Positions 12,598-40,193 of a stretch of 64,000 nucleotides of DNA are shown piece after piece. Numbering within the stretch: position 1 is the first letter of the stretch; each line of letters opens with the position of its first letter. This stretch comes from a virus (Duplodnaviria; Caudoviricetes): positions 1-64,000 of the IMG/VR virus record IMGVR_UViG_3300025608_000722; one strand, 5' to 3'. A model generated the notes under the pieces. The model saw only the letters and a list, made by a program, of their open reading frames with translations, was not told the DNA's origin and did not search any database. The translations under genes were made by a program, and so were the position numbers.

Positions 12598-13758
12598 GGT
12601 ACTTTACGATTAAAACGAGGCACTAAGACTGCACTTCAAAGCAGTCCTGGTTATACACCAGCTGAAGGTGAACTTGTTTATACAACAGATAGCAAAGAGG
12701 TCTTTGTAGGCGACGGAGCCACACAAGGTGGTATTCCAGTATCGGTGTCAACACAAAACTTAGAAGATTTAGGCAACGTACAAGCATTAGCCGCACAAAA
12801 AGATCAAATTTTAGTTTATAACGGTGCAAATTGGGCCGCTACAGACAATCCAGCATTAGACATTCGTGGTAATATCTACGGTGACGATTCAACGCTCCTA
12901 GTTGATGCTATTAACGGCAAAATTGTTGGACCCATTGAAACTACTTCTATTATTAGCAGTGGAAATATTGTAGGCAATGTAATTGGTGACGTTACTGGGT
13001 CAGTAACTGGTAACCTAGTTGGTGATACTACAGGTACACACTATGGTAATACTACTGGTTTTCATAGTGGTGATACTAAAGGCAGTGTGTTCGGCGATGA
13101 CAGTGGTCTACTAGTAGATGGTATTAATAGTTTAATTGTTGGTCCTATTGTAACCGAAACAACTCTTACAATTAGACAAGACGCACCTGCTCCAGTTAAC
13201 AGTCTCTTAATTCAAGCACAGTCTGCAGATGGCGCAACAGGTCCAAAAATTAGAACTGAAGGTTCGCGTGGTACACTTGGTGCTCCACTAGCAGTTATTG
13301 GTGGTACAACAGGTGACGCACTAACTGACATTCACGGATTTGGTTGGGACGGAACTCAGCAGACACTAGCCGGACAAATTAAAATTGCCGTCGATCTAGA
13401 TGAAACAGTATCTGATGGTATTGTACCTGGAAGAATGTTGTTCCTACCATCAAGTACCGCAGGCAACGTTACACTTGCACAAGTTATGACTTGGAATAGT
13501 AAGGGTAGACTTGGTTTAGGTACTAATAGACCTGATAACGTATTACACGTGGCAGGCGATGCAAAAATTACTACTGACCTTGAAGTGCAAGGTACAGCAA
13601 CACTAGCCAATAGTGTTAACACTGGATATCATCAGTTTGCTAGTTTAACTACTGCACAACGTGATGCACTTACTCCAGCTAACGGAATGGTTATTTATAA
13701 TTCAGATACTGAAAAATTCCAAGGCCGCGAAAACGGTGCATGGGTTAACTTAGTCTAA
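12595..13758 (+). CDS. Tail fibre/spike-like virion protein with an Mtd-N-like N-terminal domain
   Basis: 'LRLKRGT...PAEGELVYTTDSKEVFVGDG..GG'; G-x-x-x repeats; duplicated 'G(N/S)xxGDDSxLLVDxINxxIVGPI'. Confidence 0.7.
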   Translation: MGTLRLKRGTKTALQSSPGYTPAEGELVYTTDSKEVFVGDGATQGGIPVSVSTQNLEDLGNVQALAAQKDQILVYNGANWAATDNPALDIRGNIYGDDSTLLVDAINGKIVGPIETTSIISSGNIVGNVIGDVTGSVTGNLVGDTTGTHYGNTTGFHSGDTKGSVFGDDSGLLVDGINSLIVGPIVTETTLTIRQDAPAPVNSLLIQAQSADGATGPKIRTEGSRGTLGAPLAVIGGTTGDALTDIHGFGWDGTQQTLAGQIKIAVDLDETVSDGIVPGRMLFLPSSTAGNVTLAQVMTWNSKGRLGLGTNRPDNVLHVAGDAKITTDLEVQGTATLANSVNTGYHQFASLTTAQRDALTPANGMVIYNSDTEKFQGRENGAWVNLV

Positions 13759-14913
13759 ATTATACTGTTTAAGTAATTCTTTTCTACTTATTTTACCTTG
13801 TCCTTTACGTGGAATACTTTCCACGTAAAAGACTTTCTTAGGTATTTTATACCATGCAATTTCTTTAGATAATTGCTCCATATCTACTTTGCCAACAACA
13901 ACTGCATAAACGCTGTCATATCCAAACACCACACAATCTATTGCTCCGCATTTAACTAGAGCTTCTTCTACTTCGTAAGGCATAATTTTAATACCTTCTT
14001 GGTTAATTACATCTTTAACTCTTCCAGTAATAAACAAAAATCCTTCATCGTCGATATATCCTAAGTCTCCGGTATAATAACCATTAACTACAATTTCACC
14101 ATTATCAAATGTTACAGTTTTATTTGGTAGTACAAATCCAACACTGCCGTGTTTTTGCGGATAATGCATTATACTAATTGTTCCTGTTTCATTTAGTCCA
14201 TACGAATCAGTTGTAATACAATTAAAATAATTTTGCACTTCATGTTTAAAATCTTTGTACATAGGTGCACCAACTGTACGAATATGTCTTATACTCATAG
14301 TTTCATACGGCACTTTGCAATACTTCATTAACTTCAATAAAATACTAGGATTGGCTACTAAAAATGTGGGCTTAACTTTAGGCCATGATTCCCATACGTT
14401 ATCTAAAACATGATAAGTTGCACCAGTTCTATAGCAAATTGAAAACAGTTGAAACCCTATACATGCCCACAATGGAATACAATTTATAGTAGAATCTTTA
14501 TCTGTGATATTAGCATGTATTTGTATGTTAGTATCCAATCCTTCTGTATCATGATCGGCTCTTGTTAGTGGTATTAACCTAAGTGCATCAGTACTTCCGC
14601 TTGATACAAATGCTGTTATTTCGTCATCGTTACATTGATTATATCTAGGCTTTGGTAGCACATCGTCCCATATATCAACATCGTAATACTTGCGTTCAAT
14701 CTCTGTTGCTTTATAGTCCATAACAACAACACTGCACACACTCATTACTCCGTATATTTTCATTAAGTTAGTACAATTGCTGTACACACCTAACCTACAA
14801 GTTTTATCGTATCCTGCATCGATTAATTCCTTAGCATAACTTTGTGCTAAGGAATCAAACTGTTCTTTTGTATATGTATTACCATTCTCGAAAGAAAGTA
14901 TTATATTATTCAC
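13750..14913 (-). CDS. Adenylate-forming (acyl-CoA synthetase/AMP-binding) enzyme, N-terminally short
   Basis: 'VSSGST', 'SYGLNETG', 'TGDLG..D..G.L.ITGRVKDVI', A10-like 'IPRKGQGKI'. Confidence 0.85.
   Translation of the reverse strand: MNNIILSFENGNTYTKEQFDSLAQSYAKELIDAGYDKTCRLGVYSNCTNLMKIYGVMSVCSVVVMDYKATEIERKYYDVDIWDDVLPKPRYNQCNDDEITAFVSSGSTDALRLIPLTRADHDTEGLDTNIQIHANITDKDSTINCIPLWACIGFQLFSICYRTGATYHVLDNVWESWPKVKPTFLVANPSILLKLMKYCKVPYETMSIRHIRTVGAPMYKDFKHEVQNYFNCITTDSYGLNETGTISIMHYPQKHGSVGFVLPNKTVTFDNGEIVVNGYYTGDLGYIDDEGFLFITGRVKDVINQEGIKIMPYEVEEALVKCGAIDCVVFGYDSVYAVVVGKVDMEQLSKEIAWYKIPKKVFYVESIPRKGQGKISRKELLKQYNLD
13800..13839. terminator. Hairpin inside the 3' end of the AMP-ligase CDS at a convergent junction; likely terminator for the + transcript
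   Basis: TTTACGTGGAA(13804-14) / TTCCACGTAAA(13819-29), 4-nt loop, 3 further pairs beyond a mismatch, then a T-rich tract. Confidence 0.6.
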
Positions 14914-15962
14914 TTTTTAATTATTCCTGATTTAAATACACTAGCTAGTCCTAACGCTTCTTTGTTAAACTTAACTAGATTCTTGAGTGCTTGTTCAGTG
15001 ATTAGCGTCATTAGTGTATCTCTATGTGCATTTCCGTTGGCACCAATTTTCCACTTATAAACACCTACTTTGTTTTCTATAATTTTCTTACTATCTTTAT
15101 TTAAAGACATATCATGTAATGCTTGTTGTAATTTGGCAGTATTTGGATTACCTTTGCGTACCCACAATGCTTTTTGCATACCATCACGGAAACTTTTTAC
15201 TAGTTTGTATGCATCGTAGAAATCACCACTCGGCTTAACACCCCATCGTTTTTCAAATAGTATTTCAAACTGGTAACCAGGATAGTTTGTATCGTCACCA
15301 TGATCACCTGTTTCACTATTTAGAATACCATGATGAAACCAAATCTCTGCATTATCATCTGATTCAACATGCTTTTTATATGCGGCAGGATTTTCTCTAG
15401 TAGCATTTAATTCGCCTCTCTTAAAAGCAAGCCGTCTTTCGCCGCCGCTCATTCCTTTAACCCAGGTTACATTTTCTTTAAAACAAGTAATATATTCATC
15501 TACAGTTTTATCAGGACCACATACTAACATTGTCATTGCAAATGCTTCTGGTACCATGCCCGAACCTGCCGCAAATCTAATGCCGCCGTGTTCTAAATCA
15601 ATAGCACGATGCTTGCCTACAATAATGTTTAAGTTCATAAGACCAATACTTTCGTACTCAGCATAGTTGTAATCAACTTCTTCTTGTAAGAAACTTACGC
15701 CGTTGCCGCCATGACTTACCATGATTACATCATCGTCATATTGCATTTCATTATGAAATGTATTAAAGCCTGGAATATCTCGAGCACCAGGAATGTGTAC
15801 AATATTAACATCTTCTCCAAGATATTTTTCTAATTCTTTAGCAACAATTTCTGCCCAGACGCTTGTGCCGCCTCCTGGCTTCTGTGGTACTACCATTGTA
15901 TAATCTGCATTTGCTACTGTAGTAAACATTGCAAACACTAAACCTAAAATTAACTTACGCAT
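14910..15962 (-). CDS. tctC: Tripartite tricarboxylate transporter substrate-binding protein
   Basis: Signal peptide; 'VVPQKPGGGTSVWA', 'IPGA', Bug/TctC-like layout; adjacent to tctA. Confidence 0.75.
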   Translation of the reverse strand: MRKLILGLVFAMFTTVANADYTMVVPQKPGGGTSVWAEIVAKELEKYLGEDVNIVHIPGARDIPGFNTFHNEMQYDDDVIMVSHGGNGVSFLQEEVDYNYAEYESIGLMNLNIIVGKHRAIDLEHGGIRFAAGSGMVPEAFAMTMLVCGPDKTVDEYITCFKENVTWVKGMSGGERRLAFKRGELNATRENPAAYKKHVESDDNAEIWFHHGILNSETGDHGDDTNYPGYQFEILFEKRWGVKPSGDFYDAYKLVKSFRDGMQKALWVRKGNPNTAKLQQALHDMSLNKDSKKIIENKVGVYKWKIGANGNAHRDTLMTLITEQALKNLVKFNKEALGLASVFKSGIIKK

Positions 15963-17388
15963 AATCTATTTTCCTTTTTGATGTTAGTCCCCAAATTAGT
16001 GTTACAATTATTGCAAAAACTAATCCTAGGAATATTGGTTTATCTAACAGTTTATCAACTGTATAAAGTCCAGACATTTGGACTGTAAGTGCCTCAATTC
16101 TATCAGATAGAATAAAAGCAAATAGCAGTGCAGGTCTGCTAAATTTGTATTGCTTGGCTAGTAGTCCTATTACACTACACAATGCAAGCATTAAATAATC
16201 TTCCCAACCGCCTGTATATTGTACACAAGCAAGTACTATAAAACCCAACAGCAACGGAAAGTAATATTTGTAGGGTATTTGTGCTATCCGGGCTATAAAA
16301 GGTGTCGTAAACAAGCATAGAGCGCCTACAAGCACGGTTGCAAGCATAAAGCCGTATAACATACTATCAAAAAATTTAGCGTCATTAGCAAGCTCTAAAG
16401 TACCTAATTCAAAATTTAAGTATGCAAATAGAGCCATTACAATAGCGGCAAAAGGTGCACCTGGAATACCAAACAATACTGTAGGAATCATGCTGGTTGC
16501 TTTTTGTGAATTGTTAGCACCCTCTGGTCCTATAACACCTTTAATGTTTCCGTTACCAAACTTGTCTTTAGGATGACTTGCAACAGTTGAACTATATGCC
16601 ATCCAATCTGCAACTGCTCCTCCTAGTCCAGGTAATAAGCCGACAAATGCGCCAATAATCCCTCCACGTAATGCATCCCATTTATTATTCCATACAGCAA
16701 TTATTCCTTCTTTAGTTTGTATACTATTTGCAATTAATGGGTTACTGGTATTTGTACGTTGTGTAAGACCGCTTAATAATTCTGGAATGGCAAACAAACC
16801 AGCAACTAACGGCATTAATTGTATACCTGCGCCTAAATATTCCCAACCGCCAGTCCAGCGGTCTGCGTTAGTTGCAGGATCAACTCCTATTAAACCTATG
16901 AACAAACCAAAGCACAATGCAACCATACTTCTAATCCAAAACTTATTTGTTACAAATGTCACACATACTAATGCTAGTAGTGTAAATGCCCATAGCTCTG
17001 GAACACCGAATATCATTATTAGATCAGTGTAATAAGGCAACAGAAAGAATGTAAGAGATCCCCACAGTAATCCGTTTAGTGTACTTGTGGTTACTGCGGC
17101 ACTGATAGCATACGTTGCTTTACCTTGTAATGCTAACGGAAAGCCATCTACCATAGTTGCCGCGGCTGAGTTTGCACCAGGTATTCCTAACAGTACACCT
17201 GTGTAAGTATCACCTGTTGTACTTGCGGCTACTACTGCCATAACAAATATAACTGCTAGATAAGGATCTGGAAATAAAGTAATAAATGAAAATACAAATA
17301 TTAAACCTGTAGTTGCTCCGGCACCGGGCAGGATACCAATTATTAATCCATAAAATGTTCCTGCTAGTAGTGTCAATATTGAAGTCAC
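15955..17388 (-). CDS. tctA: Tripartite tricarboxylate transporter large membrane subunit
   Basis: 'GILPGAG', 'LLGIPG...AAT.VDG.PLA..G', 'GPEGANN', 'LFGIPG'; multiple TM segments; GTG start with SD AAGGAG. Confidence 0.9.
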   Translation of the reverse strand: MTSILTLLAGTFYGLIIGILPGAGATTGLIFVFSFITLFPDPYLAVIFVMAVVAASTTGDTYTGVLLGIPGANSAAATMVDGFPLALQGKATYAISAAVTTSTLNGLLWGSLTFFLLPYYTDLIMIFGVPELWAFTLLALVCVTFVTNKFWIRSMVALCFGLFIGLIGVDPATNADRWTGGWEYLGAGIQLMPLVAGLFAIPELLSGLTQRTNTSNPLIANSIQTKEGIIAVWNNKWDALRGGIIGAFVGLLPGLGGAVADWMAYSSTVASHPKDKFGNGNIKGVIGPEGANNSQKATSMIPTVLFGIPGAPFAAIVMALFAYLNFELGTLELANDAKFFDSMLYGFMLATVLVGALCLFTTPFIARIAQIPYKYYFPLLLGFIVLACVQYTGGWEDYLMLALCSVIGLLAKQYKFSRPALLFAFILSDRIEALTVQMSGLYTVDKLLDKPIFLGLVFAIIVTLIWGLTSKRKIDYA

Positions 17389-17418: not shown

Positions 17419-17456
17419 CAGAAGAACATTTTTTTGAAAAAATGTGGAGAAAAATT

Positions 17457-18182
17457 ATGAATACACGAATTTTTTCGTTAGTTATGAAAAATTTAGAACA
17501 AACCTTCAATTTACCTAAGTACAAAGGTTTACAATTAACCAAAGATAGTGTAGTAGATGATCTACCATTTACACCTGTACGTAAAGAAAAATTCGCACAG
17601 AATATTATGCACGAGTTAGATATCGAACACTTAGATTTAACTGGAACTATTGAACAGTTTGTACAATCATTGGATACTTTTTATATGAAAAGATTCTTTG
17701 GCGAAATTTGGAAACCTAATACCGACAATCATACTTACAGCGGATGGAGTATTGTTGAGCGAATTAACAAACAAAATCCACGCAATGTGTTAGACTTCGG
17801 ATGCGGATATAATCAATTTAAACCACGTATTGCTAATCTAACAGGTATTGATCCGTTTAATGACAATGCAGACTATATGGTAGACATCCTAGAGTTTAAT
17901 GTAGATGAAAAATATGATCACATGATTGTATTCGGTAGTTTAAACTTTGGTGATGAAAACGATATCCGTACAAGATTTGATAAGTTGTATAATTTATTAG
18001 ACACCGGTGGTAGAATGTACTTTAGAGTTAATCCGGGAATATTATGGCCTAAAGGTCCGTATGTAGATATATTTCCTTGGACTTTTGAGTTTGCTTATAA
18101 ACTGGCTAAAGAATATAACTGTAGTTTAGAACAATACAAAAAAGATAATAGTCGACTTTATTTTGAATTACTAAAGATGTGA
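17457..18182 (+). CDS. Class I SAM-dependent methyltransferase with a small N-terminal helical domain
   Basis: Motif I 'VLDFGCG', 'GIDP', 'YDHMIVFGSL', 'GGRM'; SD GGAGA before 17457. Confidence 0.8.
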   Translation: MNTRIFSLVMKNLEQTFNLPKYKGLQLTKDSVVDDLPFTPVRKEKFAQNIMHELDIEHLDLTGTIEQFVQSLDTFYMKRFFGEIWKPNTDNHTYSGWSIVERINKQNPRNVLDFGCGYNQFKPRIANLTGIDPFNDNADYMVDILEFNVDEKYDHMIVFGSLNFGDENDIRTRFDKLYNLLDTGGRMYFRVNPGILWPKGPYVDIFPWTFEFAYKLAKEYNCSLEQYKKDNSRLYFELLKM

Positions 18183-18899
18183 CACGTCTTTAGAAAACTT
18201 TACTGTTTTTCTAAATGCCATCTCATTAAACTCAAGATCAAATTTTTCACATAACGTCACAAAAAAATCCTTGTCGTATAATTGAGAAACTTCTTTGATA
18301 ATAAAATCTTTATCATCTGTCTTTTGTTTATAACCTTCTATTTGTGCAGTAAGATCGTTGACTAAACATTCTTTAAATGTTATTCCTTGTTCATTTGCTT
18401 TATCAGTATACAAATCTTTAAAAAGATAGTTTCTATTACGTGGATCAACATAATAATGACATGTACTGTTTATCCATCTAGTATATAATAATTCTATATC
18501 TTCAGGAATAATTACAAAATGTTTTGCAGGATTAAAAAAATTCTTTACTCTATCTAAATCAGAATGTAGTGTATACACAAAATTATTAGGATAGAGACGT
18601 TGCTTCCATGTTTCAATTTCATCTTGTGAATATTCTCTTCCTTGCTTTTCGGCCATATCTAATACAGGAGGAATAGTTTTATCACAAACTCCTTTACCTA
18701 ATGCACCTCTAAATCTTTTATTAAAATGTAATCTCGAAAAGTTAGCATCGTTTATAATATTAAAAGAGTCCCAAGGGTTGATTCCATTTTGTATATGATC
18801 GTACCAACTTACATTATTACAACTAGAAATAATTCTTCCTGCAATATGTCCGCCTGATCCCATAGGAAAATTAATTGTAATTGCATTATTATACATCAA
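18171..18899 (-). CDS. Hypothetical protein, possibly sulfotransferase/P-loop-like
   Basis: N-terminal beta strand followed by 'FPMGSGGH' Gly-rich loop; weak similarity only. Confidence 0.4.
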   Translation of the reverse strand: MMYNNAITINFPMGSGGHIAGRIISSCNNVSWYDHIQNGINPWDSFNIINDANFSRLHFNKRFRGALGKGVCDKTIPPVLDMAEKQGREYSQDEIETWKQRLYPNNFVYTLHSDLDRVKNFFNPAKHFVIIPEDIELLYTRWINSTCHYYVDPRNRNYLFKDLYTDKANEQGITFKECLVNDLTAQIEGYKQKTDDKDFIIKEVSQLYDKDFFVTLCEKFDLEFNEMAFRKTVKFSKDVSHL

Positions 18900-19566
18900 G
18901 TCTTCCTAAATAATATAATCCCTTATTCCTGTATGTTACAAGATCACCTGTTGCAAACCAATCGTCATGTATACACATCGGACTTTTTACATATAACTGG
19001 TTTTCTTTAACTCTATAATCACACCAAAATGTGTTGCCCAAAATATTATCTTCTGCTGTATCGCCAGGTTTATACAATTTATTAATAACACAAGGACCAA
19101 TTTCACTCATACCCCAATTCGCCAAAACTGTTGCGCCACGGTCTATAAATGCTTGTATATGATGTTTTGGAATTGGATCACTGCCCATTGCAACAAATTT
19201 ACCCGTTAAATCAGCTGTTTTAAAGCTCTTAGTGCTTAGTAGTGCTTCACACATAGCAGGAGCAATAAACGTGTGTGTATGACGCTTAAAACGCTTTAAA
19301 AAGCTATATGCATTGAACTTTTCAATTGTTATATCGCACCCTAGTGTATATGCCGGTAAACTTTGAAGTAATAATCCACCTGCATGAGTCATTCTAGTAA
19401 CTGTATACACACTGCTATTTTTGGTTAGATTTTGGGCAGTAATTGCAGTATCGATACAGTGTTTTAAATTTTCAGGACTTCTATATATAGATTTTGGAGA
19501 TCCTGTAGTACCACTACTGCTTATAGTGCATCCATTTTTAAGAACATCTTCAAAATTCAGTTCCAT
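18889..19566 (-). CDS. Minimal AMP-binding enzyme core (225 aa, no C-terminal subdomain)
   Basis: 'SSGTTGSPKS', 'WGMSEIG', 'FATGDLV', ends at 'YLGRLDV'. Confidence 0.8.
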   Translation of the reverse strand: MELNFEDVLKNGCTISSSGTTGSPKSIYRSPENLKHCIDTAITAQNLTKNSSVYTVTRMTHAGGLLLQSLPAYTLGCDITIEKFNAYSFLKRFKRHTHTFIAPAMCEALLSTKSFKTADLTGKFVAMGSDPIPKHHIQAFIDRGATVLANWGMSEIGPCVINKLYKPGDTAEDNILGNTFWCDYRVKENQLYVKSPMCIHDDWFATGDLVTYRNKGLYYLGRLDV

Positions 19567-21869: not shown

Positions 21870-21877
21870 TTTACAAT

Positions 21878-25866: not shown

Positions 25867-25884
25867 AATACTATACTAACACAC

Positions 25885-28010: not shown

Positions 28011-28028
28011 TATTCAAAGCACCACGGT

Positions 28029-32671: not shown

Positions 32672-32682
32672 TATATATGTAC

Positions 32683-33750: not shown

Positions 33751-33967
33751 CCATTACCAACTTTATATCTTTACCTGGTCCAACTTTACTAGGTAAGTCT
33801 CCGTATTGATCTACATACCATTTAATAACTGCACGATACCAATTTTGACTATCGTGATGTGCTTGTTTATTAAATTGCCAAATATTATTATTAGTAGCCT
33901 GCATTGTACTTAATGCCCTAGCACTTTCAGTTTGAAGTTGTCTAAGTGATAAATTACTTGTATCCAA
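33743..33967 (-). CDS. Small hypothetical protein (~74 aa)
   Basis: TTG start overlapping the upstream stop; fills the gap in the operon. Confidence 0.6.
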   Translation of the reverse strand: MDTSNLSLRQLQTESARALSTMQATNNNIWQFNKQAHHDSQNWYRAVIKWYVDQYGDLPSKVGPGKDIKLVMDV

Positions 33968-34787
33968 TTCGCATGTACCTTGTATATTTGTCAAGATTTA
34001 ATTCTCCTTCATATAACAATGTTGTCATTGGGGCCATTCCGGCAAAGTCGTGCATACTAGTAGTGCAGTTAACATGTTCTTCAACTTCATAGAAATCATT
34101 ACTTTGTAATATAACTAATTTTCCTGCCGGAATTAAATCATACCATTCACTAAAATTTTTAATGTGTTCGCAACTTGTATTAATGATGGTGTTAGGAATA
34201 TCACCTAAGTCGACTGTTGTTCCGTTAGCACGTAATACTGTGTATACTGCATTTTCGTAATTAATTTCTTTAATGTCTTTAGTGCAGGATTTGAACTTCC
34301 ATCCGTCAAGCACCCAATCTTTATTAAATGCTTCTGCTACTTCTCTGCAAGTGTCGTCGATATCAAAACTTCTAAATTTTTCAATTTTTAAATTATTTTC
34401 AAACATCATAGTAGCTAATGTTGCATACCAACCGGCACATAAAAATACAACACCTAAATCAAGATTTAAATTCTTTAGCTCTGCAACTAACCATTGTTTA
34501 CTTTTTATCTGGCCTCGGCTAATACAATCCGTGTCAAAGTTTTCGTTTTTTTGCAACTTACGAATACCTTCAATAAAAGGCGTGTCTTTAATTTGTTTAA
34601 CTGCACGAAATAAACTCCACACGTTATCTTGTAACAATGCCTTACGTAAATCATCTTTATTATCGTCTGTAACAATTCTAAAAATACTATTAAGATCTTT
34701 GTCAACATATGCTCTACGTAGATCTGCTAGTTTGCTACTAGTAGGATATAATAATTCTAGTCTATCTAAAATTTCATGAGTTTGCAT
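33954..34787 (-). CDS. SAM-dependent methyltransferase-like protein
   Basis: 'VFLCAGWY' Gly motif, 'SFDID', 'INTSCEH'. Confidence 0.65.
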   Translation of the reverse strand: MQTHEILDRLELLYPTSSKLADLRRAYVDKDLNSIFRIVTDDNKDDLRKALLQDNVWSLFRAVKQIKDTPFIEGIRKLQKNENFDTDCISRGQIKSKQWLVAELKNLNLDLGVVFLCAGWYATLATMMFENNLKIEKFRSFDIDDTCREVAEAFNKDWVLDGWKFKSCTKDIKEINYENAVYTVLRANGTTVDLGDIPNTIINTSCEHIKNFSEWYDLIPAGKLVILQSNDFYEVEEHVNCTTSMHDFAGMAPMTTLLYEGELNLDKYTRYMRIGYK

Positions 34788-35466
34788 CAAATTGCTCCTT
34801 TAACCATTCGAAGTTGTTAATATTTACTAGCTCATCAGGCCTGCAAGAAAGGCCAAAATCCATACCAGCATTAGCACCCGCCAGGGCATACTTACCAAAA
34901 GGTTTATCAACTCCCTTAGTAGTCCATATTTTAAGTCGTTCATCTGTTTCATCATTAATTTGTCTATCTATAATTTTACTTGATAATTTAGCACATTCTC
35001 TAAATGCACTTCTCCATGTACTAAATGCATCAGTATTAAATGCAGTAATATTAGATATCTCGTTAATTACTTTAAATTTAGTACTAATACTAGTTGTCAT
35101 GTCAGTTGTCGTTGTATCCATATTTTTTGTTAACTCTGTTGGAAACAACTTTACACCGCCGTAACCATAAATTAAATTGTTAATAGGATTCATGCTTCTA
35201 TAAACATGTACTGTATCAGGTTCAGTTGTATAATAATTAAAATCAAATTCATCAACTATTACTGCGTCACCGTCTACAGCAAAAAAATAATTAGTGGTTG
35301 CTAATTTAGCCGCTTCAATATGAGCATTGTGAATACCCTTTACATTAGTAACACGCTTTACTCTGTCGTCTCCAAAGATCCCAACTGTATTAAATCTTTT
35401 ATACAACTCGTTAAAATTTTGTTCTGCATTTGGTTCATGATAACTTATAAACACTATGTCGTACAT
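34774..35466 (-). CDS. GT-A fold glycosyltransferase-like protein
   Basis: 'DIVFISY.EP', 'GIHNAH..AA', DxD 'VDGDA'. Confidence 0.65.
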   Translation of the reverse strand: MYDIVFISYHEPNAEQNFNELYKRFNTVGIFGDDRVKRVTNVKGIHNAHIEAAKLATTNYFFAVDGDAVIVDEFDFNYYTTEPDTVHVYRSMNPINNLIYGYGGVKLFPTELTKNMDTTTTDMTTSISTKFKVINEISNITAFNTDAFSTWRSAFRECAKLSSKIIDRQINDETDERLKIWTTKGVDKPFGKYALAGANAGMDFGLSCRPDELVNINNFEWLKEQFDANS

Positions 35467-36800
35467 TTTTTGCACTCCTTGTAAAAATCTTTTAATTCAG
35501 GAAATACAGTTAAAAAATCAGTACCTCGACGTTTATCAAACTGGGTGATAAATTCATAAAACATAAATCTACGTTCTTTAGCAAGACTACCAAATTCTTC
35601 TGGGTTTTTAAAACGTTTGTTTAGATCTTGTACAATTCTTTTTAAATCATTTGTTTCGTGCTCATCAAAATGTTCTTCCATAAACTCTACACAAGGAATT
35701 AAATATTTTTCAATCATGTCTTCAGTTGCGATCATTGCATCGAGAAACCCAGGATTTCTTACATACGGGATTGCAATTCTTACTCTATCTTTAAACCCAT
35801 TACGCAATCTTAACACAATTCCAAGAAACGGTCTGAATGTAGGAAAACTTAGGATATTAAATGCCGACATAAAACTTAGTTTTCCATTAGTATTTTTTAG
35901 ATAATACAATACATTGTCGTAGAATTGTTGCCAGTTTAGTCCTGTTCTACTGTACTCTGCTTGTGCTCCTTTGCTTTCTGCACTTACATGCAAAGTAAAT
36001 CCTTTGATACAATTGTTACGCTCAAGGTGTTGTATCTTTTTAATAAATTTATTCCATAACTTTCCTGGCGGACATGCATTTGTATTAATAGAAAATTCCA
36101 ACTGAGGCTGAGGATTGTCAATTAAATGTTGCAGAACTTTGTCAGTATGTTTACTTAAGAGGGGTTCGCCTCCTGTAATACGAAAAGTGTGCATATGTTT
36201 AACTGCTTCCGGAAACCATTTCCAAAAAGCATTAATATACGGATTTTCTTCTCTTTCAGGAATTTGCTTTTGATATTCATCTAGTTGATTATAAAACCAA
36301 TTAATTGTACTAAATTTATAGTGGCCGTGTTCTTTAATTTCTTCAGTCCATTTACTACTAAATGCCGGTCCACAATAACTACATTTAAAGTTACATACGT
36401 TAGAAAAACTTACTTCAACATATCTAGGATAAAAATCATCGTAAGCATTAGAATTTACAATTTTATGATAGTCCGGCCAACTCCAATAATTTCTACTTTT
36501 CCATATTCTATCACTGTAATGATCTGTGTTATCTTCAATACGCCAGCAATAGTCACACTCGCCGGGTCGCTCACCGTTTTTCATTTGCTGGCGGGTGTTC
36601 TTTTTAAACATTGTATTGTGTAGCAATTGCGGATTTTCTTCAACTTCGTTGATTGGAATCGTGTGTGCTTTTACGTGATGACAACTATGATTTAATCCTG
36701 ATCCTAAATGTATAGTAACCTGTGTCCATTTAGCCAAGCAGAATCCACATCCTACTTGGTTTAATTTTTCTTTAACTTTTTTAGGATCTGTTAATTCCAT
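35454..36800 (-). CDS. Radical SAM protein, type I
   Basis: 'FCLAKW...SCHH...CDYCW'; 'CNFKCSYC'; 'ITGGEP'. Confidence 0.9.
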   Translation of the reverse strand: MELTDPKKVKEKLNQVGCGFCLAKWTQVTIHLGSGLNHSCHHVKAHTIPINEVEENPQLLHNTMFKKNTRQQMKNGERPGECDYCWRIEDNTDHYSDRIWKSRNYWSWPDYHKIVNSNAYDDFYPRYVEVSFSNVCNFKCSYCGPAFSSKWTEEIKEHGHYKFSTINWFYNQLDEYQKQIPEREENPYINAFWKWFPEAVKHMHTFRITGGEPLLSKHTDKVLQHLIDNPQPQLEFSINTNACPPGKLWNKFIKKIQHLERNNCIKGFTLHVSAESKGAQAEYSRTGLNWQQFYDNVLYYLKNTNGKLSFMSAFNILSFPTFRPFLGIVLRLRNGFKDRVRIAIPYVRNPGFLDAMIATEDMIEKYLIPCVEFMEEHFDEHETNDLKRIVQDLNKRFKNPEEFGSLAKERRFMFYEFITQFDKRRGTDFLTVFPELKDFYKECKKCTT

Positions 36801-36801
36801 T

Positions 36802-37722
36802 TTATTCCTTGTCTATAATAAACTGCTGGGCACTGTTTCTACTAGGGTTTTGATAAACAGTTTTAAAGAAAGCACTTTGTTCTTGTGTAAATGGTTGAAT
36901 AGCAATTGGACATTCTAGTTCATTAATTAGACGGGCACCTAATATAAAAATTTCGTCATGTAGTACCTCTAGTGGTAAAGCATCTCGACCGCCCCAGAGA
37001 TCATTCAAATATTTAAAATCTCTTACATTTACATAATCCCAGTCATCTAACATTGTAGCAACTAGGCCTTCACGTGCTCCGTAAATTGCCCAATCACCAT
37101 TTTGAACGTCTGACCCAACCATTAGCCAGATCCACAGTCTATGTAAATTTTTCCAATGACCATTTAAGAAGTCTTCTTTAGTAGGTTTAATTCCTCGATC
37201 CAATGCCATCTTTACACCTTCACGATAGCCAGCACGCCATGCTTGCTGTGGCGTAGCATTATTATATACATCACTATAACAACTATTTTGTTGAATATAT
37301 TGTAAGTCCCAGCAAAAATCTACTTGAGCAGACTTATTATCTGGATCGGCATTTTCGTGTGTACGCATATTAAGAACGTATTCTTTTGGCCAACATTTTA
37401 AACCGCCATTACCGTACATAAGTCCATTGATAGCATTTTTTCCGCACCAACTAATAACACTATTTTCTAAATCAGTATGTTCATCAAAATCTAATACTTG
37501 ATTAATAAAGTCTGGACGAATTTTGTTGTCACCGTCAACTGTAATAAATCGATCAGTTTCACTTAATTCGGCGCATGCTTTGTGTGCGGCATCACTGCCT
37601 TCTACTCCGTGTACTCGTTTTGCCCACGGTGCCTTGGTGAGTAGATCAGCATAATTTTCTTCTGCATTTGGTTCGTCATATGATAGATATATAATGTCTT
37701 GCTCTGCAATCTTTAACTTCAT
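36802..37722 (-). CDS. GT-A fold glycosyltransferase-like protein (paralog of 34774-35466)
   Basis: 'DIIYLSYDEPNAE', 'GSDAAHKA', 'TVDGDN', 'WRAGYREGVK'. Confidence 0.65.
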   Translation of the reverse strand: MKLKIAEQDIIYLSYDEPNAEENYADLLTKAPWAKRVHGVEGSDAAHKACAELSETDRFITVDGDNKIRPDFINQVLDFDEHTDLENSVISWCGKNAINGLMYGNGGLKCWPKEYVLNMRTHENADPDNKSAQVDFCWDLQYIQQNSCYSDVYNNATPQQAWRAGYREGVKMALDRGIKPTKEDFLNGHWKNLHRLWIWLMVGSDVQNGDWAIYGAREGLVATMLDDWDYVNVRDFKYLNDLWGGRDALPLEVLHDEIFILGARLINELECPIAIQPFTQEQSAFFKTVYQNPSRNSAQQFIIDKE

Positions 37723-38240
37723 TTCTTTTCCTCGTACACGCATCTGGTTATTTTACTATCTGAATAAATGCTATATTCATCAGGTACATTTAACTCTACA
37801 TGCTGTGTGTCACTTAAATTAAACTTAATTGTCTTGTACAAAAAATGCGGATCATCTTTTTTTGTTACACTAAACAATATTTCTTCTTCTAGTTTAGAAT
37901 CTATAAGACTCTGATTTGTATTAATATAACATAAATTGTATTGCTTGTCAACTGTAAAAACTAGATCATGTAAATTATCATCGGATATATGTAGCAATTT
38001 ATTGAATACAAATTTATCATTTATAGATATATTCTTTTTTAACTTGTATGTCTTAGTCGTGATATCAAACAATACTCTGTAATCTTCCATCTTGTCTTCA
38101 TAGGATTGAATAGGTGCTATTTCTTTTTCAGTAACTTCGATGTATTCATACCCGTCCTCAATAGATGGTCCTACGCTGTACAGTTCGCCAGTCTCTTTAA
38201 CAAAGCACACATATTGTTTTCCATCCCAACTAGCGTACAT
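37719..38240 (-). CDS. Hypothetical protein
   Basis: Coupled ORF within the operon. Confidence 0.65.
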   Translation of the reverse strand: MYASWDGKQYVCFVKETGELYSVGPSIEDGYEYIEVTEKEIAPIQSYEDKMEDYRVLFDITTKTYKLKKNISINDKFVFNKLLHISDDNLHDLVFTVDKQYNLCYINTNQSLIDSKLEEEILFSVTKKDDPHFLYKTIKFNLSDTQHVELNVPDEYSIYSDSKITRCVYEEKK

Positions 38241-39030
38241 TGTACTTCTCCATAATTTGATTACAAAATTTATCTTCAGTATAATGAAATACGCCTAGCT
38301 GGCTATAATTTCCTATTTTTAAATTGCAGTCGTCGTCCATATAATACGGAATATCATCTAACCAATTATCGTTTGGTGCTGTCCAGTCTTGTACTTTTGA
38401 CTTCATATGAACAAATGAAAGTAAATTACAGGAATATTTTTCTAAATCAGTGTTTAACACTGCTATTGCATGATTGATATCCATACTACTTAATCTAGGT
38501 TTTAATTTTTTTAAATAGATATCATAAAATTCTTCGTGGTTTTTACAAATTAATTCCAACTGTTTATAATACTGTAAACCAATATCATTCTTTTTAAAAT
38601 AGTGAAATGCACAATAGATGTTTGGTAAATTATTTTTTGCAAAAGCCTGTCTATAGTAACTATCTTTAACTGTAGTACCTTTATATGTTTGAACGTTTGT
38701 AGTAAAGCATACGTCATATTTTTCTAAATATATCCAAACGTAATCTATGTTAGATAAAAATATCATATCAGTATCTAAAACAATAGTTTCTGTATAAGGT
38801 GTTACATGAAAAATTTTCCAACGGTCCTCAGTACGATAAAAATCAGTACCAGTTTGCCAAGGTATTTCAATTACATTATCAAAGACACTGTGATATTCGT
38901 CAGGAAGCTCGTCGTTAGTAATAATAGAAACACTATTAATTTCTTGCGTTTTCTTAATACTTAACGCACAAAGATATGCCTGTTTTACATACTCTTTGCC
39001 CGATGCCATCATTACATATCCTTTAGACAT
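38230..39030 (-). CDS. GT8-like glycosyltransferase / nucleotide-diphospho-sugar transferase
   Basis: 'YVKQAYLCALSI', 'TPYTETIVLDTDMIF' (DxD), 'FVHMK'. Confidence 0.7.
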   Translation of the reverse strand: MSKGYVMMASGKEYVKQAYLCALSIKKTQEINSVSIITNDELPDEYHSVFDNVIEIPWQTGTDFYRTEDRWKIFHVTPYTETIVLDTDMIFLSNIDYVWIYLEKYDVCFTTNVQTYKGTTVKDSYYRQAFAKNNLPNIYCAFHYFKKNDIGLQYYKQLELICKNHEEFYDIYLKKLKPRLSSMDINHAIAVLNTDLEKYSCNLLSFVHMKSKVQDWTAPNDNWLDDIPYYMDDDCNLKIGNYSQLGVFHYTEDKFCNQIMEKYNVR

Positions 39031-39853
39031 TTATCAACCTATCTAAGCTAAATTTATTCATTACATGTACATTCATGTTATTTGTTGAGGCTAGTGTATA
39101 TTCGCCATGAATGTTTTCTTTTTCAAGAAGGAACGTTAATTGTTCATTTTGCATTTTACTTAATATATCTCTATCTAAAGAATAATATAATTTTCCAGGC
39201 AACGTCTTAGCCCAGTCTAAATCTTTAAATCCATTCATTATATGTATTGCAATGCTAAACGCATGATCATTCCTAAAGTTTCGAGATCCTAGATCATACA
39301 CATATTGATAATGTTCCCAGTTGTCTACAACATAATTTAATATTGTAAAAAATGTTTTAACTTCTGGAGTATTTTTAAAATAAAATATTGAAGCCCAGTA
39401 GAACGGAATTCCTTTGTCGTTAATATAATCAAATTCTTTATGTTTACGCCAAGGTGCTAAGTCAGTACATTCTTTATAAATTTGAAATTCATGAGAGGTA
39501 TCAAAAGCATACTTTAGTGTATTATTACAAATAATAATATCTGTATCTAAAACTAGTGTTTCCTCATAAGGTGTTAGCTCATAACTATTAGATCTGCCGA
39601 AATTTTTAAAATGAAGAGTTTTATGACTTTCTTGGCCGTTTCGATAACGTTTAAAGTTATTATCTAAGTCATTAATAGTAATAACATTATCAAACACTTT
39701 TCTATAATTACTATTAATAGCATCTGGTGTCGAAGTTACAACAGTAGTGGGCAAGTCTAAATGCTTGCTAATCTGATTAGCAAGTAAAACTGCTTGCTTT
39801 ACATAATTGATTTCACCATTATTATTTGCAAAGCATAATACCCCTTTACTCAT
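39023..39853 (-). CDS. GT8-like glycosyltransferase (paralog of 38230-39030)
   Basis: 'YVKQA', 'TPYEETLVLDTDII', 'RNDHAFSIA', 'HVMNK'. Confidence 0.7.
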   Translation of the reverse strand: MSKGVLCFANNNGEINYVKQAVLLANQISKHLDLPTTVVTSTPDAINSNYRKVFDNVITINDLDNNFKRYRNGQESHKTLHFKNFGRSNSYELTPYEETLVLDTDIIICNNTLKYAFDTSHEFQIYKECTDLAPWRKHKEFDYINDKGIPFYWASIFYFKNTPEVKTFFTILNYVVDNWEHYQYVYDLGSRNFRNDHAFSIAIHIMNGFKDLDWAKTLPGKLYYSLDRDILSKMQNEQLTFLLEKENIHGEYTLASTNNMNVHVMNKFSLDRLINV

Positions 39854-40193
39854 TAACTAAGCCTTCAACGTTTCTTTTAGTTGTAAGGGCTTTGTATTCA
39901 GAATAGTATCTATTAGATGCTGTAATGTATTGTTGCTTTACTAAACTGACAAACTGTGCTAGATCTTCAACTAATATCGGTGTATTGTTATCATCCGTAA
40001 TTACTGTTTTCTTAACATCAAGCATTACTAAATTAGAAACAAAAGAAAAGAACTCTTTAGAAACAGTAAATCTTCCGCCTAAATGATATAACACTAAGTC
40101 TTCTTGATATTTTTGTTGCAATAATCGCTTTTGTGTGCTAAGTGTAGCAGAAAAATTAGCGAACTCTAGTGCTTTCTCTAGATCTTTATCCAT
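39846..40193 (-). CDS. Hypothetical protein
   Basis: SD AGGAG; coupled to the downstream GT gene. Confidence 0.7.
   Translation of the reverse strand: MDKDLEKALEFANFSATLSTQKRLLQQKYQEDLVLYHLGGRFTVSKEFFSFVSNLVMLDVKKTVITDDNNTPILVEDLAQFVSLVKQQYITASNRYYSEYKALTTKRNVEGLVNE

What the first reader, a model, noticed from the sequence alone, without database searches (positions are those of the whole stretch)
13750..40193. A ~26 kb phage hypermodification island of radical SAM, glycosyltransferase and acyl/amino-transfer genes attached to the virion gene cassette
Seen: 11 radical SAM loci, 4 GT-like genes, 2 methyltransferases, 2 adenylation enzymes, a PLP aminotransferase, a GNAT, a 2OG oxygenase, a QueC-like ATPase and TctA/TctC, nearly all overlap-coupled. 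The 23.8-40.2 kb part is on the same strand directly downstream of the fibre/baseplate genes and is headed by late-type TAAATA motifs (40220, 32684). Known: such enzyme sets build and tailor glycans or modify peptides and bases, and giant eukaryotic viruses glycosylate their virions. Inference: this is a late-expressed pathway decorating virion proteins (or DNA) with an elaborately modified glycan or adduct, with no characterized equivalent in tailed phages that I know of.
Basis: partly seen in the sequence, partly recalled or inferred. Interest (0 to 1): 0.9.

Follow-up and report, generated by a model that had tools for sequence, protein, structure and literature searches.

The report
Phage radical-SAM sugar-tailoring island
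An uncultured giant marine phage spends about 26 kb beside its tail-fibre genes on eleven radical-SAM enzymes, four sugar-transferase-like proteins and acid-activating enzymes; this widely conserved island is shared with predatory Bdellovibrio-like bacteria and most likely builds a chemically edited sugar whose target is untested.

Summary
The window is the first 64 kb of an 80-kb fragment of a jumbo myovirus. It carries 11 radical-SAM ORFs, all with CX3CX2C, in three architectures: 3 N_Twi_rSAM, 5 SPASM-type and 3 MoaA/viperin-like. It also has four GT-A-fold or GT8-like proteins, a class I SAM methyltransferase, a PP-loop ATPase, two adenylating enzymes, a class IV aminotransferase, a 2OG-type oxygenase and TctA. 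The GNAT, the TctC and a second methyltransferase are only weak leads.

The island has two modules. The rSAM/GT module (23.8-40.2 kb) occurs in at least 92 viral contigs, downstream of the tail-fibre genes wherever that boundary was reached. The transport/adenylation module (13.75-23.8 kb) occurs in 36 viral contigs.

Orthologues of the core enzymes (41-59% identity) lie in Bdellovibrionota chromosomes among GT2, UDP-sugar dehydrogenase, epimerase and DegT genes. Some phage islands carry that dehydrogenase themselves. A cytoplasmic sugar or glycan building and radical-tailoring pathway is therefore the best reading.

Decoration of the virion is plausible but not shown. The TAAATA motif is real but not specific to virion genes, and relatives have sigma-70-like promoters at the head of the island.

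This scan has also met the same kind of island on other DNA.

The parts
39846..40193 (-). First gene of the rSAM/GT module: a 115-aa protein of unknown family, preceded by a TAAATA element at 40220-40225
   Evidence: No Pfam or PHROG hit. Homologues occupy the same position in 15 related loci. Motif.
38230..39853 (-). Two paralogous GT8-like (glycogenin-like) GT-A glycosyltransferase candidates, 39023-39853 and 38230-39030
   Evidence: The two are 36% identical over the N-terminus. The A3 profile hits glycogenin at E=2e-4 and the DxD motif is invariant. Four family members hit Mannosyl_trans3.
37719..38240 (-). 173-aa protein of unknown function
   Evidence: Only a sub-threshold PRORP hit. Present in few relatives.
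36802..37743 (-). GT-A-fold (GT2-like) transferase candidate, paralogue of 34774-35475
   Evidence: 30% identity to 34774-35475. It belongs to alignment A1, which has an invariant DGD motif.
35454..36800 (-). N_Twi_rSAM radical SAM enzyme (N-terminal twitch domain)
   Evidence: NF033640 at 300.6 bits, cut-off 170. CNFKCSYC at residue 136.
34774..35475 (-). GT-A-fold (GT2-like) transferase candidate; part of the conserved core
   Evidence: AlphaFold model with pLDDT 89.6. All top Foldseek hits are GT-A glycosyltransferases, including WrtF, ArnC, GtrB, ppGalNAc-T and SunS. Orthologues occur in 58 viral and 11 bacterial loci.
33954..34790 (-). Class I SAM-dependent methyltransferase; part of the conserved core
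   Evidence: Model with pLDDT 91.6. At least 500 Foldseek hits, the listed top ones almost all SAM-dependent methyltransferases, including NodS, MtmC and natural-product O-methyltransferases. An orthologue lies in the Bdellovibrio sp. HCB2-146 cluster.
33746..33967 (-). Conserved protein of about 74 aa with no Cys and no known family. The listed 83-aa ORF is too long at its 5' end.
   Evidence: About 70-80% identity across 45 relatives. In many relatives stop codons interrupt the first ~9 codons. No PDB or Pfam relative. No counterpart in the bacterial clusters.
30606..33750 (-). Three rSAM/SPASM-type enzymes (group B): 32683-33750 (core), 31604-32671 and 30606-31607
   Evidence: PF04055 with or without SPASM. 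CX3CX2C at residues 18-21. The three are paralogous. 32683-33750 is conserved at over 50% identity in 73 of 80 loci.
29197..30609 (-). N_Twi_rSAM; the most conserved gene of the island
   Evidence: NF033640 at 424 bits. 74-99% identity in at least 92 viral contigs. 2121 homologous protein clusters. 55-63% orthologues in Bdellovibrionota.
24745..29207 (-). Group C rSAMs with a MoaA/viperin-like N-terminus (28029-29207, 25885-27069, 24745-25866), plus the group B rSAM/SPASM 27069-28010
   Evidence: Pfam and NCBIfam hits, all below equivalog cut-offs. Paralogy. 24745-25866 is 84% conserved among relatives and has a 59% orthologue in a Bdellovibrio isolate.
23830..24757 (-). Group B rSAM split into two overlapping ORFs: core 24134-24757 and SPASM piece 23830-24153
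   Evidence: Pfam Radical_SAM on one ORF and weak SPASM on the other. Each aligns to the matching part of the full-length paralogues. The same split is seen in L010 and L175.
21878..23840 (+). Plus-strand pair: a PP-loop ATPase with a QueC-like Cys cluster (21878-22675) overlapping an N_Twi_rSAM (22653-23840)
   Evidence: SGGMDS motif and C-terminal CxC...CxxCxxC. Weak QueC hits. NF033640 at 300 bits. In relatives, PP-loop genes are followed by an rSAM in 57 of 72 cases.
18171..21803 (-). Six-gene operon: 2OG/Asp_Arg_Hydrox-type oxygenase, GNAT-like protein (weak), DUF6356-like protein, class IV aminotransferase, short adenylation fragment, and an unknown 242-aa protein
   Evidence: Co-conserved in 15-16 of 36 TctA-bearing contigs; the aminotransferase and the DUF6356-like gene occur in only 5.
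17442..18182 (+). Possible methyltransferase (weak evidence)
   Evidence: Methyltransf_23 at E=0.0096, below the cut-off. Conserved next to TctA in 27 contigs.
13750..17388 (-). TctA membrane transporter (15955-17388), TctC-like candidate (14910-15962) and AMP-forming ligase fragment (13750-14913)
   Evidence: TctA at 311 bits with 10 hydrophobic segments. TctC is only an Atlas lead. The trio is conserved in 14-33 viral contigs.
40229..47206 (-). Flanking tail-fibre cassette: a 304-aa protein of unknown family, three fibre-like proteins (one with a Phage Tail Collar domain) and a 203-aa conserved protein
   Evidence: PHROG tail-fibre and tail families. Collar domain. The same order is seen in G007.
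12595..13758 (+). Protein with an Mtd_N (major tropism determinant N-terminal) domain, converging on the left end of the island
   Evidence: PF18454 at E=4e-11. Conserved at this position in relatives.

Best explanation
The region is an accessory island in the host-recognition (fibre) region of an uncultured marine jumbo myovirus. It has two modules.

Module 1 (23.8-40.2 kb) is a cytoplasmic sugar or glycan building and tailoring pathway. Four soluble GT-A-type transferases and a SAM methyltransferase would assemble and methylate a glycan. A variable battery of radical-SAM enzymes (N_Twi_rSAM, SPASM-type, MoaA/viperin-like), often paired with PP-loop ATPases, would carry out radical edits on nucleotide-sugars or on the growing glycan. 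Candidate edits are C-methylation, epimerisation, dehydration, decarboxylation or C-C rearrangement.

Module 2 (13.75-23.8 kb) would import a carboxylic acid through TctA and a TctC-like protein. It would then activate it (two adenylating enzymes, a PP-loop ATPase) and process it (class IV aminotransferase, 2OG oxygenase) to supply an acyl or aminoacyl substituent.

The cassette derives from a glycan gene cluster of the kind found in Bdellovibrionota.

Status of each step:
- Shown: the kinds of enzyme, their conservation, their position, and their kinship with bacterial glycan loci.
- Inferred: a sugar substrate and the division of labour between the enzymes.
- Open: the acceptor. I lean towards the phage's own fibres or virion (about 0.35-0.4 of the total), ahead of the host envelope glycan (about 0.3).
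For: - Enzyme inventory.
- Transferases and methyltransferase: GT-A fold with DxD, GT8 profile hit and methyltransferase fold.
- Cytoplasmic pathway: all module 1 proteins lack TM segments, and there is no flippase, polymerase or ligase.
- Conservation: at least 92 viral contigs share the core with conserved order. The median is 8 rSAM genes per 21-kb locus, with variable paralogue content.
- Fibre adjacency: the fibre genes lie directly upstream on the same strand wherever the boundary was reached. This holds for the window, L034, L058, L070 and G007, and partly for G006.
- Bacterial counterpart: the Bdellovibrio sp. HCB2-146 chromosome holds orthologues of 29197 (58%), 24745 (59%), 32683 (44%), 35454 (41%) and 33954 (34%). 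They sit among five GT2 genes, three UDP-glucose/GDP-mannose dehydrogenases, two epimerase/dehydratases, a DegT aminotransferase and an acetyltransferase. One N_Twi_rSAM is translationally coupled to a dehydrogenase-epimerase-DegT run.
- Second bacterial genome: an array of six tandem N_Twi genes, with a further rSAM gene on either side, lies next to an asparagine synthase, a GT2, a UDP-sugar dehydrogenase and a PMT_2 gene.
- Sugar enzyme inside phage islands: a 45-47% orthologue of that dehydrogenase lies inside the island of five viral loci.
- Family distribution: N_Twi_rSAM scores above its cut-off 10-17 times in each of four Bdellovibrionota genomes and in none of 14 control genomes.
- Origin: the viral 29197 clade (SH-like support 1.0) nests within Bdellovibrionota orthologues (0.989).
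- Module 2: co-conserved in the same slot in 36 contigs.
Against: - No enzyme reaches an equivalog cut-off, and no substrate is known for any N_Twi_rSAM member.
- The window itself has no nucleotide-sugar synthesis gene.
- Only 19 of 78 bacterial loci showed a recognisable sugar gene within 10 kb by a blunt tblastn test.
- Pfam does not call any of the four GT candidates.
- SPASM/twitch enzymes also act on peptides and proteins.
- For the virion acceptor specifically, there is only positional evidence. Diverged relatives carry sigma-70-like promoters at the head of the island, which in many phages marks early rather than late genes.
Confidence: 0.6

Rival explanations
1. The chemistry is the same, but the target is the infected cell. 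The island re-tailors the host's nucleotide-sugar pool or its lipid-linked envelope glycan (LPS, capsule or protein O-glycan) at the cytoplasmic face. This would block superinfection by other phages or change the surface of the virocell.
For: - The bacterial counterparts sit in loci that look like cell-surface polysaccharide loci. They include GT2 genes, a UDP-sugar dehydrogenase, an ArnT/PMT_2-like GT-C and a polysaccharide lyase.
- The gene content is hypervariable in the manner of O-antigen loci.
- Relatives have sigma-70-like promoters at the head of the island.
- The authors of PMC7029224 proposed this role for GT8 genes in the fibre region of pelagimyophages.
- Module 2 encodes a membrane transporter that can only work in the cell.
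Against: - There is no flippase, polymerase, ligase or polyprenyl-phosphate transferase, and every module 1 protein is soluble.
- The phage looks lytic and very large, whereas known phage O-antigen modification systems are membrane-bound Gtr-type sets of temperate phages (established knowledge).
- In this window the head of the island shares its TAAATA element with the fibre genes.
Confidence: 0.3
2. The radical-SAM enzymes act on a peptide or protein rather than on sugars. This would be either a RiPP-like product or cofactor made from the conserved ~74-aa protein, comparable to the way mycofactocin combines an rSAM/SPASM enzyme, a GT2 and a methyltransferase. Alternatively it would be direct radical cross-linking or epimerisation of fibre proteins.
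For: - SPASM and twitch domains are typical of peptide maturases. Weak NCBIfam hits include the mycofactocin maturase and sactipeptide and ranthipeptide maturases.
- The small protein is conserved immediately upstream of the core SPASM enzyme in 66 of 80 loci.
- The PDB neighbours of the GT-A model include the peptide glycosyltransferase SunS.
Against: - All peptide-maturase hits are far below cut-off, at 20-45 bits against cut-offs of 265-850.
- In group B and C enzymes CX3CX2C starts at residues 13-44, which leaves no room for a fused RRE. No PqqD-like gene, leader peptidase or exporter was found.
- The small protein has no Cys, is about 75% conserved along its whole length, and is absent from the bacterial clusters that do hold the orthologous rSAMs.
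Confidence: 0.12
3. The island hypermodifies phage DNA, for example through 7-deazaguanine derivatives or glycosylated bases, to evade restriction.
For: - A QueC-like PP-loop ATPase lies inside the island.
- According to the first-stage notes, folE and queE lie at 1-5 kb of the window; I did not re-test this.
- Phage glycosyltransferases and radical-SAM enzymes are known to act on DNA bases (Pyle et al. 2024, cited in PMC12619734; other cases from established knowledge).
Against: - No TGT/DpdA was found in this record or in five relatives, one of them 92% complete.
- The thymidylate-synthase homologue in relatives scores as canonical ThyA at 342 bits.
- The QueC-like protein scores 24 bits against a cut-off of 150, and its paralogues in relatives do not hit QueC at all.
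- The bacterial counterparts lie in sugar loci, not in DNA-modification loci.
Confidence: 0.06

Closest known systems
NCBIfam NF033640, N_Twi_rSAM (twitch domain-containing radical SAM protein)
   Same: Three window ORFs score 300-424 bits against a cut-off of 170. They have the N-terminal Cys-rich twitch/SPASM-like domain followed by a CX3CX2C core.
   Different: The family is defined only by computation and has no known substrate or reaction. Membership therefore names the proteins without explaining them.
rSAM/GT cassettes in Bdellovibrionota chromosomes, for example Bdellovibrio sp. HCB2-146, contig JBLEQP010000001.1 at about 1.858-1.895 Mb
   Same: Orthologues of five core genes at 34-59% identity. 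The same three rSAM architectures occur with GT-A, methyltransferase, PP-loop and 2OG-oxygenase genes.
   Different: The bacterial clusters also carry standard nucleotide-sugar enzymes and Pfam-recognisable GT2 genes. They lack the 74-aa protein, the GT8 pair and the TctA module. They are uncharacterised too.
Host recognition cluster of pelagimyophages and cyanomyophages (Zaragoza-Solas et al. 2020, PMC7029224)
   Same: A giant baseplate-associated protein is followed by tail fibres, then by GT8-type glycosyltransferases and 'radical SAM cassettes', in a hypervariable region.
   Different: Those are T4-like phages of 132-164 kb. This phage's baseplate wedge is closest (about 34%) to Atu_ph07, SCTP-2 and PA5oct-type jumbo phages. 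The paper mentions the radical-SAM genes only in passing and proposes modification of the host O-chain.
Mycobacteriophage virion glycosylation (Freeman et al. 2023, as cited in PMC12619734)
   Same: Phage-encoded glycosyltransferase genes lie beside structural genes, and the glycans are displayed on virion proteins.
   Different: No radical-SAM enzymes are involved, and the glycosylation was shown by experiment. Here no acceptor has been shown.
Sugar-acting twitch/SPASM radical SAM enzymes, such as BlsE (cytosylglucuronate decarboxylase) and BtrN
   Same: A short N-terminus, an auxiliary-cluster architecture and weak profile similarity. BlsE appears among the PDB hits of the N_Twi profile at E=4e-5, and TIGR04466 hits 31604-32671 at E=1.4e-7.
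   Different: The scores are far below equivalog cut-offs. SkfB, viperin, MoaA and NifB match equally well through the shared rSAM core.

Membership tests
N_Twi_rSAM (NF033640) | Whole-protein score above the curated cut-off of 170 bits | tested here: met
   29197-30609 scores 424 bits, 22653-23840 scores 300 and 35454-36800 scores 300.6. The other eight rSAMs score 25-52 bits and are not members.
N_Twi_rSAM (NF033640) | N-terminal twitch/SPASM-like Cys-rich domain ahead of the CX3CX2C core | tested here: met
   Pfam SPASM matches residues 11-77 and 13-97, with CX3CX2C at residues 121 and 150. Conserved N-terminal Cys residues are C13, C31, C94 and C97 in alignment A4.
Radical SAM superfamily | CX3CX2C motif and a PF04055 match | tested here: met
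   All 11 ORFs meet both criteria.
RiPP rSAM/SPASM peptide maturases | Equivalog-level match to a known maturase | tested here: not met
   The best hits (PapB, StsB, MftC, WgkB, YhhB) score 20-45 bits against cut-offs of 265-850.
RiPP rSAM/SPASM peptide maturases | A fused or separate RRE (PqqD-like) domain, and a precursor peptide | tested here: not met
   CX3CX2C begins at residues 13-44 in groups B and C, which leaves no N-terminal RRE. There is no PqqD hit. The only small conserved ORF has no Cys and is absent from the bacterial clusters.
GT-A glycosyltransferases (GT2-like) | GT-A Rossmann-like fold with a DxD motif | tested here: met
   The model of 34774-35475 has pLDDT 89.6. The top 40 Foldseek hits are almost all GT-A transferases, at E about 1e-4 and TM 0.36-0.51. 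DGD is invariant in 22 sequences.
GT-A glycosyltransferases (GT2-like) | Sequence-family membership (Pfam Glycos_transf_2 or similar) | tested here: not met
   No Pfam family at E up to 5 and no PDB sequence relative.
GT8 (glycogenin / LPS glycosyltransferase family) | Profile similarity over the nucleotide-sugar-binding half, including DxD | tested here: inconclusive
   The A3 profile matches glycogenin at E=2e-4 over about 100 residues. The DTD motif is invariant. PF01501 itself was not hit. Four members hit Mannosyl_trans3.
Class I SAM-dependent methyltransferases | Seven-strand Rossmann methyltransferase fold | tested here: met
   The model of 33954-34790 has pLDDT 91.6. There are at least 500 Foldseek hits at E<=1e-3, and the listed top ones are almost all SAM-dependent methyltransferases. 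No Pfam hit.
QueC (7-cyano-7-deazaguanine synthase) | Equivalog score plus the PP-loop and Zn-Cys motifs | tested here: not met
   The motifs are present: SGGMDS and a C-terminal Cys cluster. TIGR00364 scores only 24 bits against a cut-off of 150. Paralogues in relatives do not hit QueC. The protein is a QueC-like PP-loop ATPase, not QueC.
Tripartite tricarboxylate transporter (TctABC) | TctA, TctB and TctC all present | tested here: inconclusive
   TctA scores 311 bits. The TctC candidate has no Pfam, NCBIfam or PDB hit and only an Atlas feature lead. No TctB was recognised.
Phage virion glycosylation systems | Glycan covalently attached to virion proteins | not testable with these tools
   Only adjacency to the fibre genes was shown.
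T4-type late promoter regulon | TATAAATA about 10 nt upstream of the transcription start, and late timing | tested here: inconclusive
   TATAAATA occurs twice in the window, once before fibre gene 41165-42643. The shorter TAAATA is enriched in intergenic gaps, including the head of the island, but it also precedes non-structural genes. No expression data were available.

The most novel reading that the evidence does not exclude
A family of radical-SAM-edited glycans, made by arrays of N_Twi_rSAM and SPASM enzymes acting on sugars, forms a hypervariable coat on the receptor-binding fibres of abundant marine jumbo phages. The same chemistry is used by predatory Bdellovibrionota on their own surface or fibre-like adhesins. 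This would be a new branch of glycan biochemistry, with many radical steps per glycan, tied to recognition of prey or host.
Probability: 0.25. Interest if true: 0.9.

Novelty: new variant of a known kind. Interest (0 to 1): 0.72.

Why it matters
Radical-SAM enzymes are costly and oxygen-sensitive. Eleven of them in one phage island, with a median of eight per locus across at least 80 related marine phage contigs and more than 2000 homologous protein clusters, points to an abundant pathway that nobody has studied. If the substrates are sugars, this would greatly widen the known radical chemistry of glycans. It would also give the large N_Twi_rSAM family its first function. The link to a cultured Bdellovibrio isolate that carries the orthologous cluster makes the question testable at the bench without culturing the phage. 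Knowing whether the product ends up on the virion or on the infected cell would show how giant marine phages handle host recognition or superinfection.

Tried and rejected
- Cultured relatives. Megablast of the island against 50,697 phage records found nothing. tblastn with the core N_Twi protein found only 22%-identical rSAMs in Vibrio phages K566 and K567. There is no cultured relative.
- PDB sequence searches. Profiles of the GT2-like, methyltransferase and 74-aa families gave nothing usable.
- PHROGs. No families for the unknown island proteins.
- Fibre adjacency in bacteria. A 1959-aa Peptidase_S74 fibre-like protein abuts the cluster in the Bdellovibrio isolate. S74 proteins are not adjacent to N_Twi clusters in the three other genomes searched. 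I rejected this as a general association.
- Diversity-generating retroelement around the Mtd_N protein. No repeat pair of 60 nt or more was found.
- Terminators and sigma-70 promoters inside the island. Neither is more frequent than in shuffled sequence.
- DNA-modification markers. TGT and ThyA are absent from the record; relatives have only canonical ThyA and no TGT.
- 'Moraphage' paper (PMC12619734). It concerns a different lineage and makes no mention of radical SAM.
- Literature searches for Bdellovibrio with twitch radical SAM, and for marine jumbo phages with radical SAM, found no paper on this system.
- Tools that did not run. 

Full report
**What the window is.** The window is bases 1-64000 of a 79,932-bp IMG/VR viral record that CheckV rates 16% complete. 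The minus strand from about 64 kb down to 40.2 kb encodes:
- a baseplate wedge protein (PHROG 10646);
- a 4987-aa ORF with FG-GAP and CBM_5_12 matches;
- a 203-aa conserved protein;
- three fibre-like proteins, one with a Phage Tail Collar domain.

The baseplate wedge is about 34% identical to those of Agrobacterium phage Atu_ph07, Salicola phage SCTP-2 and PA5oct-like phages. This is an uncultured jumbo myovirus. No cultured phage shares the island.

**Checking the observation.** Eleven ORFs hit PF04055 and all carry CX3CX2C. All-against-all BLAST sorts them into three paralogous architectures.
- Group A, N_Twi_rSAM, with an N-terminal twitch/SPASM-like domain: 29197-30609, 22653-23840 and 35454-36800. 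They score 424, 300 and 300.6 bits against NF033640, whose cut-off is 170.
- Group B, short N-terminus plus a C-terminal SPASM domain: 32683-33750, 31604-32671, 30606-31607 and 27069-28010. A fifth copy is split into 24134-24757 and 23830-24153.
- Group C, N-terminus like MoaA or viperin: 28029-29207, 25885-27069 and 24745-25866.

No rSAM reaches any equivalog cut-off. PDB profile searches give only generic core similarity to SkfB, BlsE, viperin, MoaA and NifB.

Pfam does not recognise the four 'GT-like' genes, but other evidence does.
- 34774-35475, with its paralogue 36802-37743, models confidently (pLDDT 89.6). Its best PDB neighbours are all GT-A glycosyltransferases, and a DGD motif is invariant.
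- The 38230/39023 pair has a profile hit to glycogenin (GT8) at E=2e-4 and an invariant DxD.
- 33954-34790 is a class I SAM methyltransferase by fold.

For the remaining genes:
- TctA, two AMP-binding fragments, a class IV aminotransferase and an Asp_Arg_Hydrox-type oxygenase are solid.
- The 'QueC-like' protein has the PP-loop SGGMDS and a QueC-style Cys cluster, but it is not a QueC equivalog.
- The GNAT, the TctC and the second methyltransferase are weak leads only.

**Two modules with different distributions.** A scan of viral contigs with 29197-30609 returned at least 92 contigs at 74-99% identity. The protein has 2121 homologous clusters in metagenome data.

Mapping all island proteins onto 80 loci shows a conserved core: the GT2-like gene, the methyltransferase, a ~74-aa protein, rSAMs 32683, 29197 and 28029, and rSAM 24745. 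Between these lies a variable set of rSAM and PP-loop paralogues. The median is 8 rSAM genes per 21-kb locus and the maximum is 12.

Wherever the upstream boundary was reached, the gene order matches the window: giant protein, fibre genes, 40229 homologue(s), 39846, two GT8-like genes, GT2-like genes, and so on. This holds for L034, L058, L070 and G007, and partly for G006. At the other end the island abuts a block on the opposite strand that is homologous to window 8.5-13.8 kb.

The left part (13.75-23.8 kb) is missing from most of those loci. It is itself co-conserved in the same slot in 36 contigs found with TctA, at 33-97% identity. The island is therefore a hypervariable region bracketed by receptor-binding-type genes. 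On the right are the fibres, and on the left is a converging protein with an Mtd_N domain (12595-13758).

**The bacterial counterpart.** A scan of one genome per prokaryotic species with a profile of the N_Twi proteins returned almost only Bdellovibrionota. Each of four such genomes holds 10-17 copies above the family cut-off, arranged in large clusters. None of 14 control genomes has a copy above the cut-off.

In the cultured isolate Bdellovibrio sp. HCB2-146, a cluster of about 37 kb holds orthologues of 29197 (58%), 24745 (59%), 32683 (44%), 35454 (41%) and the methyltransferase (34%). These sit among five GT2 genes, three UDP-glucose/GDP-mannose dehydrogenases, two epimerase/dehydratases, a DegT-type sugar aminotransferase, an acetyltransferase and a polysaccharide lyase. 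One N_Twi gene overlaps the start of a dehydrogenase-epimerase-DegT run.

In a second genome, six tandem N_Twi genes are flanked on each side by a further radical-SAM gene. Next to this array lie an asparagine synthase, a GT2, a UDP-sugar dehydrogenase and a PMT_2 gene.

The bacterial loci also hold homologues of the phage GT2-like, methyltransferase, PP-loop and 2OG-oxygenase genes, but no phage structural genes. An orthologue of the Bdellovibrio dehydrogenase (45-47% identity) lies inside the island of five viral loci.

A FastTree of 29197 orthologues was rooted on paralogues. It places the viral clade (SH-like support 1.0) inside the Bdellovibrionota sequences (0.989). Deeper nodes are weak. 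I omitted two thirds of the near-identical viral rows and every row containing a stop codon.

This is guilt by association. A blunt tblastn test found recognisable sugar genes in only 19 of 78 bacterial loci. Even so, it is the only functional context available, and it points to sugar chemistry.

**How it most likely works.** All module 1 proteins are soluble. There is no flippase, polymerase, ligase or polyprenyl-phosphate transferase. The pathway therefore acts in the cytoplasm.

I infer that the GT-A enzymes and the methyltransferase assemble and methylate a glycan, and that the rSAM battery edits nucleotide-sugars or glycan-bound sugars.

PP-loop ATPases are followed by an rSAM in 57 of 72 cases, and by a group A enzyme in 33. 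By analogy with QueC, and with the asparagine-synthase-type amidotransferases of polysaccharide loci, they would activate a carboxylate such as a uronic acid. This step is inference.

Module 2 looks like a supply line. It would take up a carboxylic acid (TctA and a TctC-like protein), adenylate it, transaminate it and hydroxylate it. No part of the chemistry has been demonstrated.

**The acceptor and the timing.** It is depleted in the window (49 copies against 134 expected), yet 10 copies lie in the 1.7% that is non-coding. Twelve lie in sense orientation within 70 nt upstream of start codons. These include the head of the island (40220), 32684, fibre genes (42672, 47224) and the Mtd_N gene (12562). 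They also include non-structural genes (3350, 7752, 9713, 11317) and the divergent pair at 21832/21844.

The full T4 late consensus TATAAATA occurs only twice.

In 4-5 of 8 diverged relatives, the gap before the island's first gene holds a near-consensus TTGACA-N16/17-TATAAT promoter. Such sites number only one to four per 21-kb locus. Late co-expression with the fibres is therefore possible in this phage, but it is neither shown nor conserved.

The virion (fibre) acceptor rests on position alone. The host-envelope alternative, proposed for pelagimyophage GT8 genes (PMC7029224), remains close behind.

DNA modification is unlikely. There is no TGT, and relatives have only a canonical ThyA.

A peptide or RiPP route is also unlikely. 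There is no RRE, leader peptidase or exporter. The conserved small protein has no Cys and is absent from the bacterial clusters.

**Comparison with what is known, and novelty.**
- Phage glycosyltransferase islands next to structural genes are known, as is virion glycosylation in mycobacteriophages (cited in PMC12619734).
- Radical-SAM cassettes in the fibre region of pelagimyophages have been mentioned in passing (PMC7029224).
- NF033640 names the main rSAM family but assigns it no function.
- I found no paper that treats these arrays or the link to Bdellovibrionota.
- This scan has flagged the same kind of island on other DNA several times, with similar readings. I reached the Bdellovibrionota link independently, before reading those notes.

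I rate this a new variant of a known kind, namely a phage glycan island with an unprecedented and uncharacterised radical-SAM component. It is interesting mainly because it is abundant, conserved, and testable through a cultured bacterium.

**Limits.** The window's record is a fragment. Gene starts come from ORF listing only.

Noticed in passing
window 12595-13758 (+): A protein with an N-terminal Mtd_N (major tropism determinant) domain (E=4e-11) converges on the left end of the island. No template/variable repeat pair of 60 nt or more, as a diversity-generating retroelement would have, was found in the window.
   Followed up: partly
window 47227-62190 (-): A single 4987-aa ORF with FG-GAP and CBM_5_12 matches lies between the baseplate wedge and the fibres. 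Its C-terminal part is about 40% conserved in relative G007. It may be the counterpart of the giant VrlC-type baseplate protein of T4-like marine phages.
   Followed up: partly
window, intergenic gaps at 3350, 7752, 9713, 11317, 12562, 21832/21844, 32684, 40220, 42672 and 47224: TAAATA is about 2.7-fold depleted overall but concentrated in the 1.7% of the window that is non-coding. It is often followed 4-7 nt later by a TATA(A/C)T-like element. Two copies (3350, 9713) sit in the spacer of TTGACA/TTGACT-N17-TATAAT/TATACT promoters. There may be two promoter classes.
   Followed up: partly
window 23830-24757 (-): One group B radical-SAM gene is split into a core ORF and a separate, overlapping SPASM ORF. 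The same split occurs in 95%-identical relatives, so it is either a tolerated two-piece enzyme or a shared frameshift.
   Followed up: no
window 13750-14913 and 18889-19566 (-): The two AMP-binding ORFs are short (387 and 225 aa). They match different parts of acyl-CoA ligases: the C-terminal half in one, and the central part of the N-domain in the other. Neither is a full-length ligase.
   Followed up: no
L173:2010-7889 (Bdellovibrio sp. HCB2-146): A 1959-aa protein with a Peptidase_S74 (tail-spike intramolecular chaperone) domain lies about 2 kb from the rSAM/GT cluster. It is one of only four such proteins in the genome. The adjacency was not seen in three other Bdellovibrionota genomes.
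   Followed up: yes
L116:4635-12572 (Bdellovibrionales chromosome OZ220490.1): Six N_Twi_rSAM paralogues stand head to tail, overlapping or separated by at most about 60 nt. A further radical-SAM gene lies at each end of the array. This is an extreme tandem expansion of one enzyme family.
   Followed up: partly
L089, L090, L096, L129 (MAGs labelled Crocinitomicaceae, Neisseriaceae, Rickettsiales, Gammaproteobacteria): These contigs carry the phage-type island, including the phage-only 74-aa protein, and they fall inside the viral clade of the tree. They are probably phage contigs binned into bacterial MAGs.
   Followed up: partly
G005:C1:32124-32975, G008:C1:207055-207906, G009:C1:155491-156336: In three relatives a canonical thymidylate synthase gene (342 bits) sits on the opposite strand directly beyond the 24745-type rSAM at the end of the island. 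The window's record has no ThyA.
   Followed up: no
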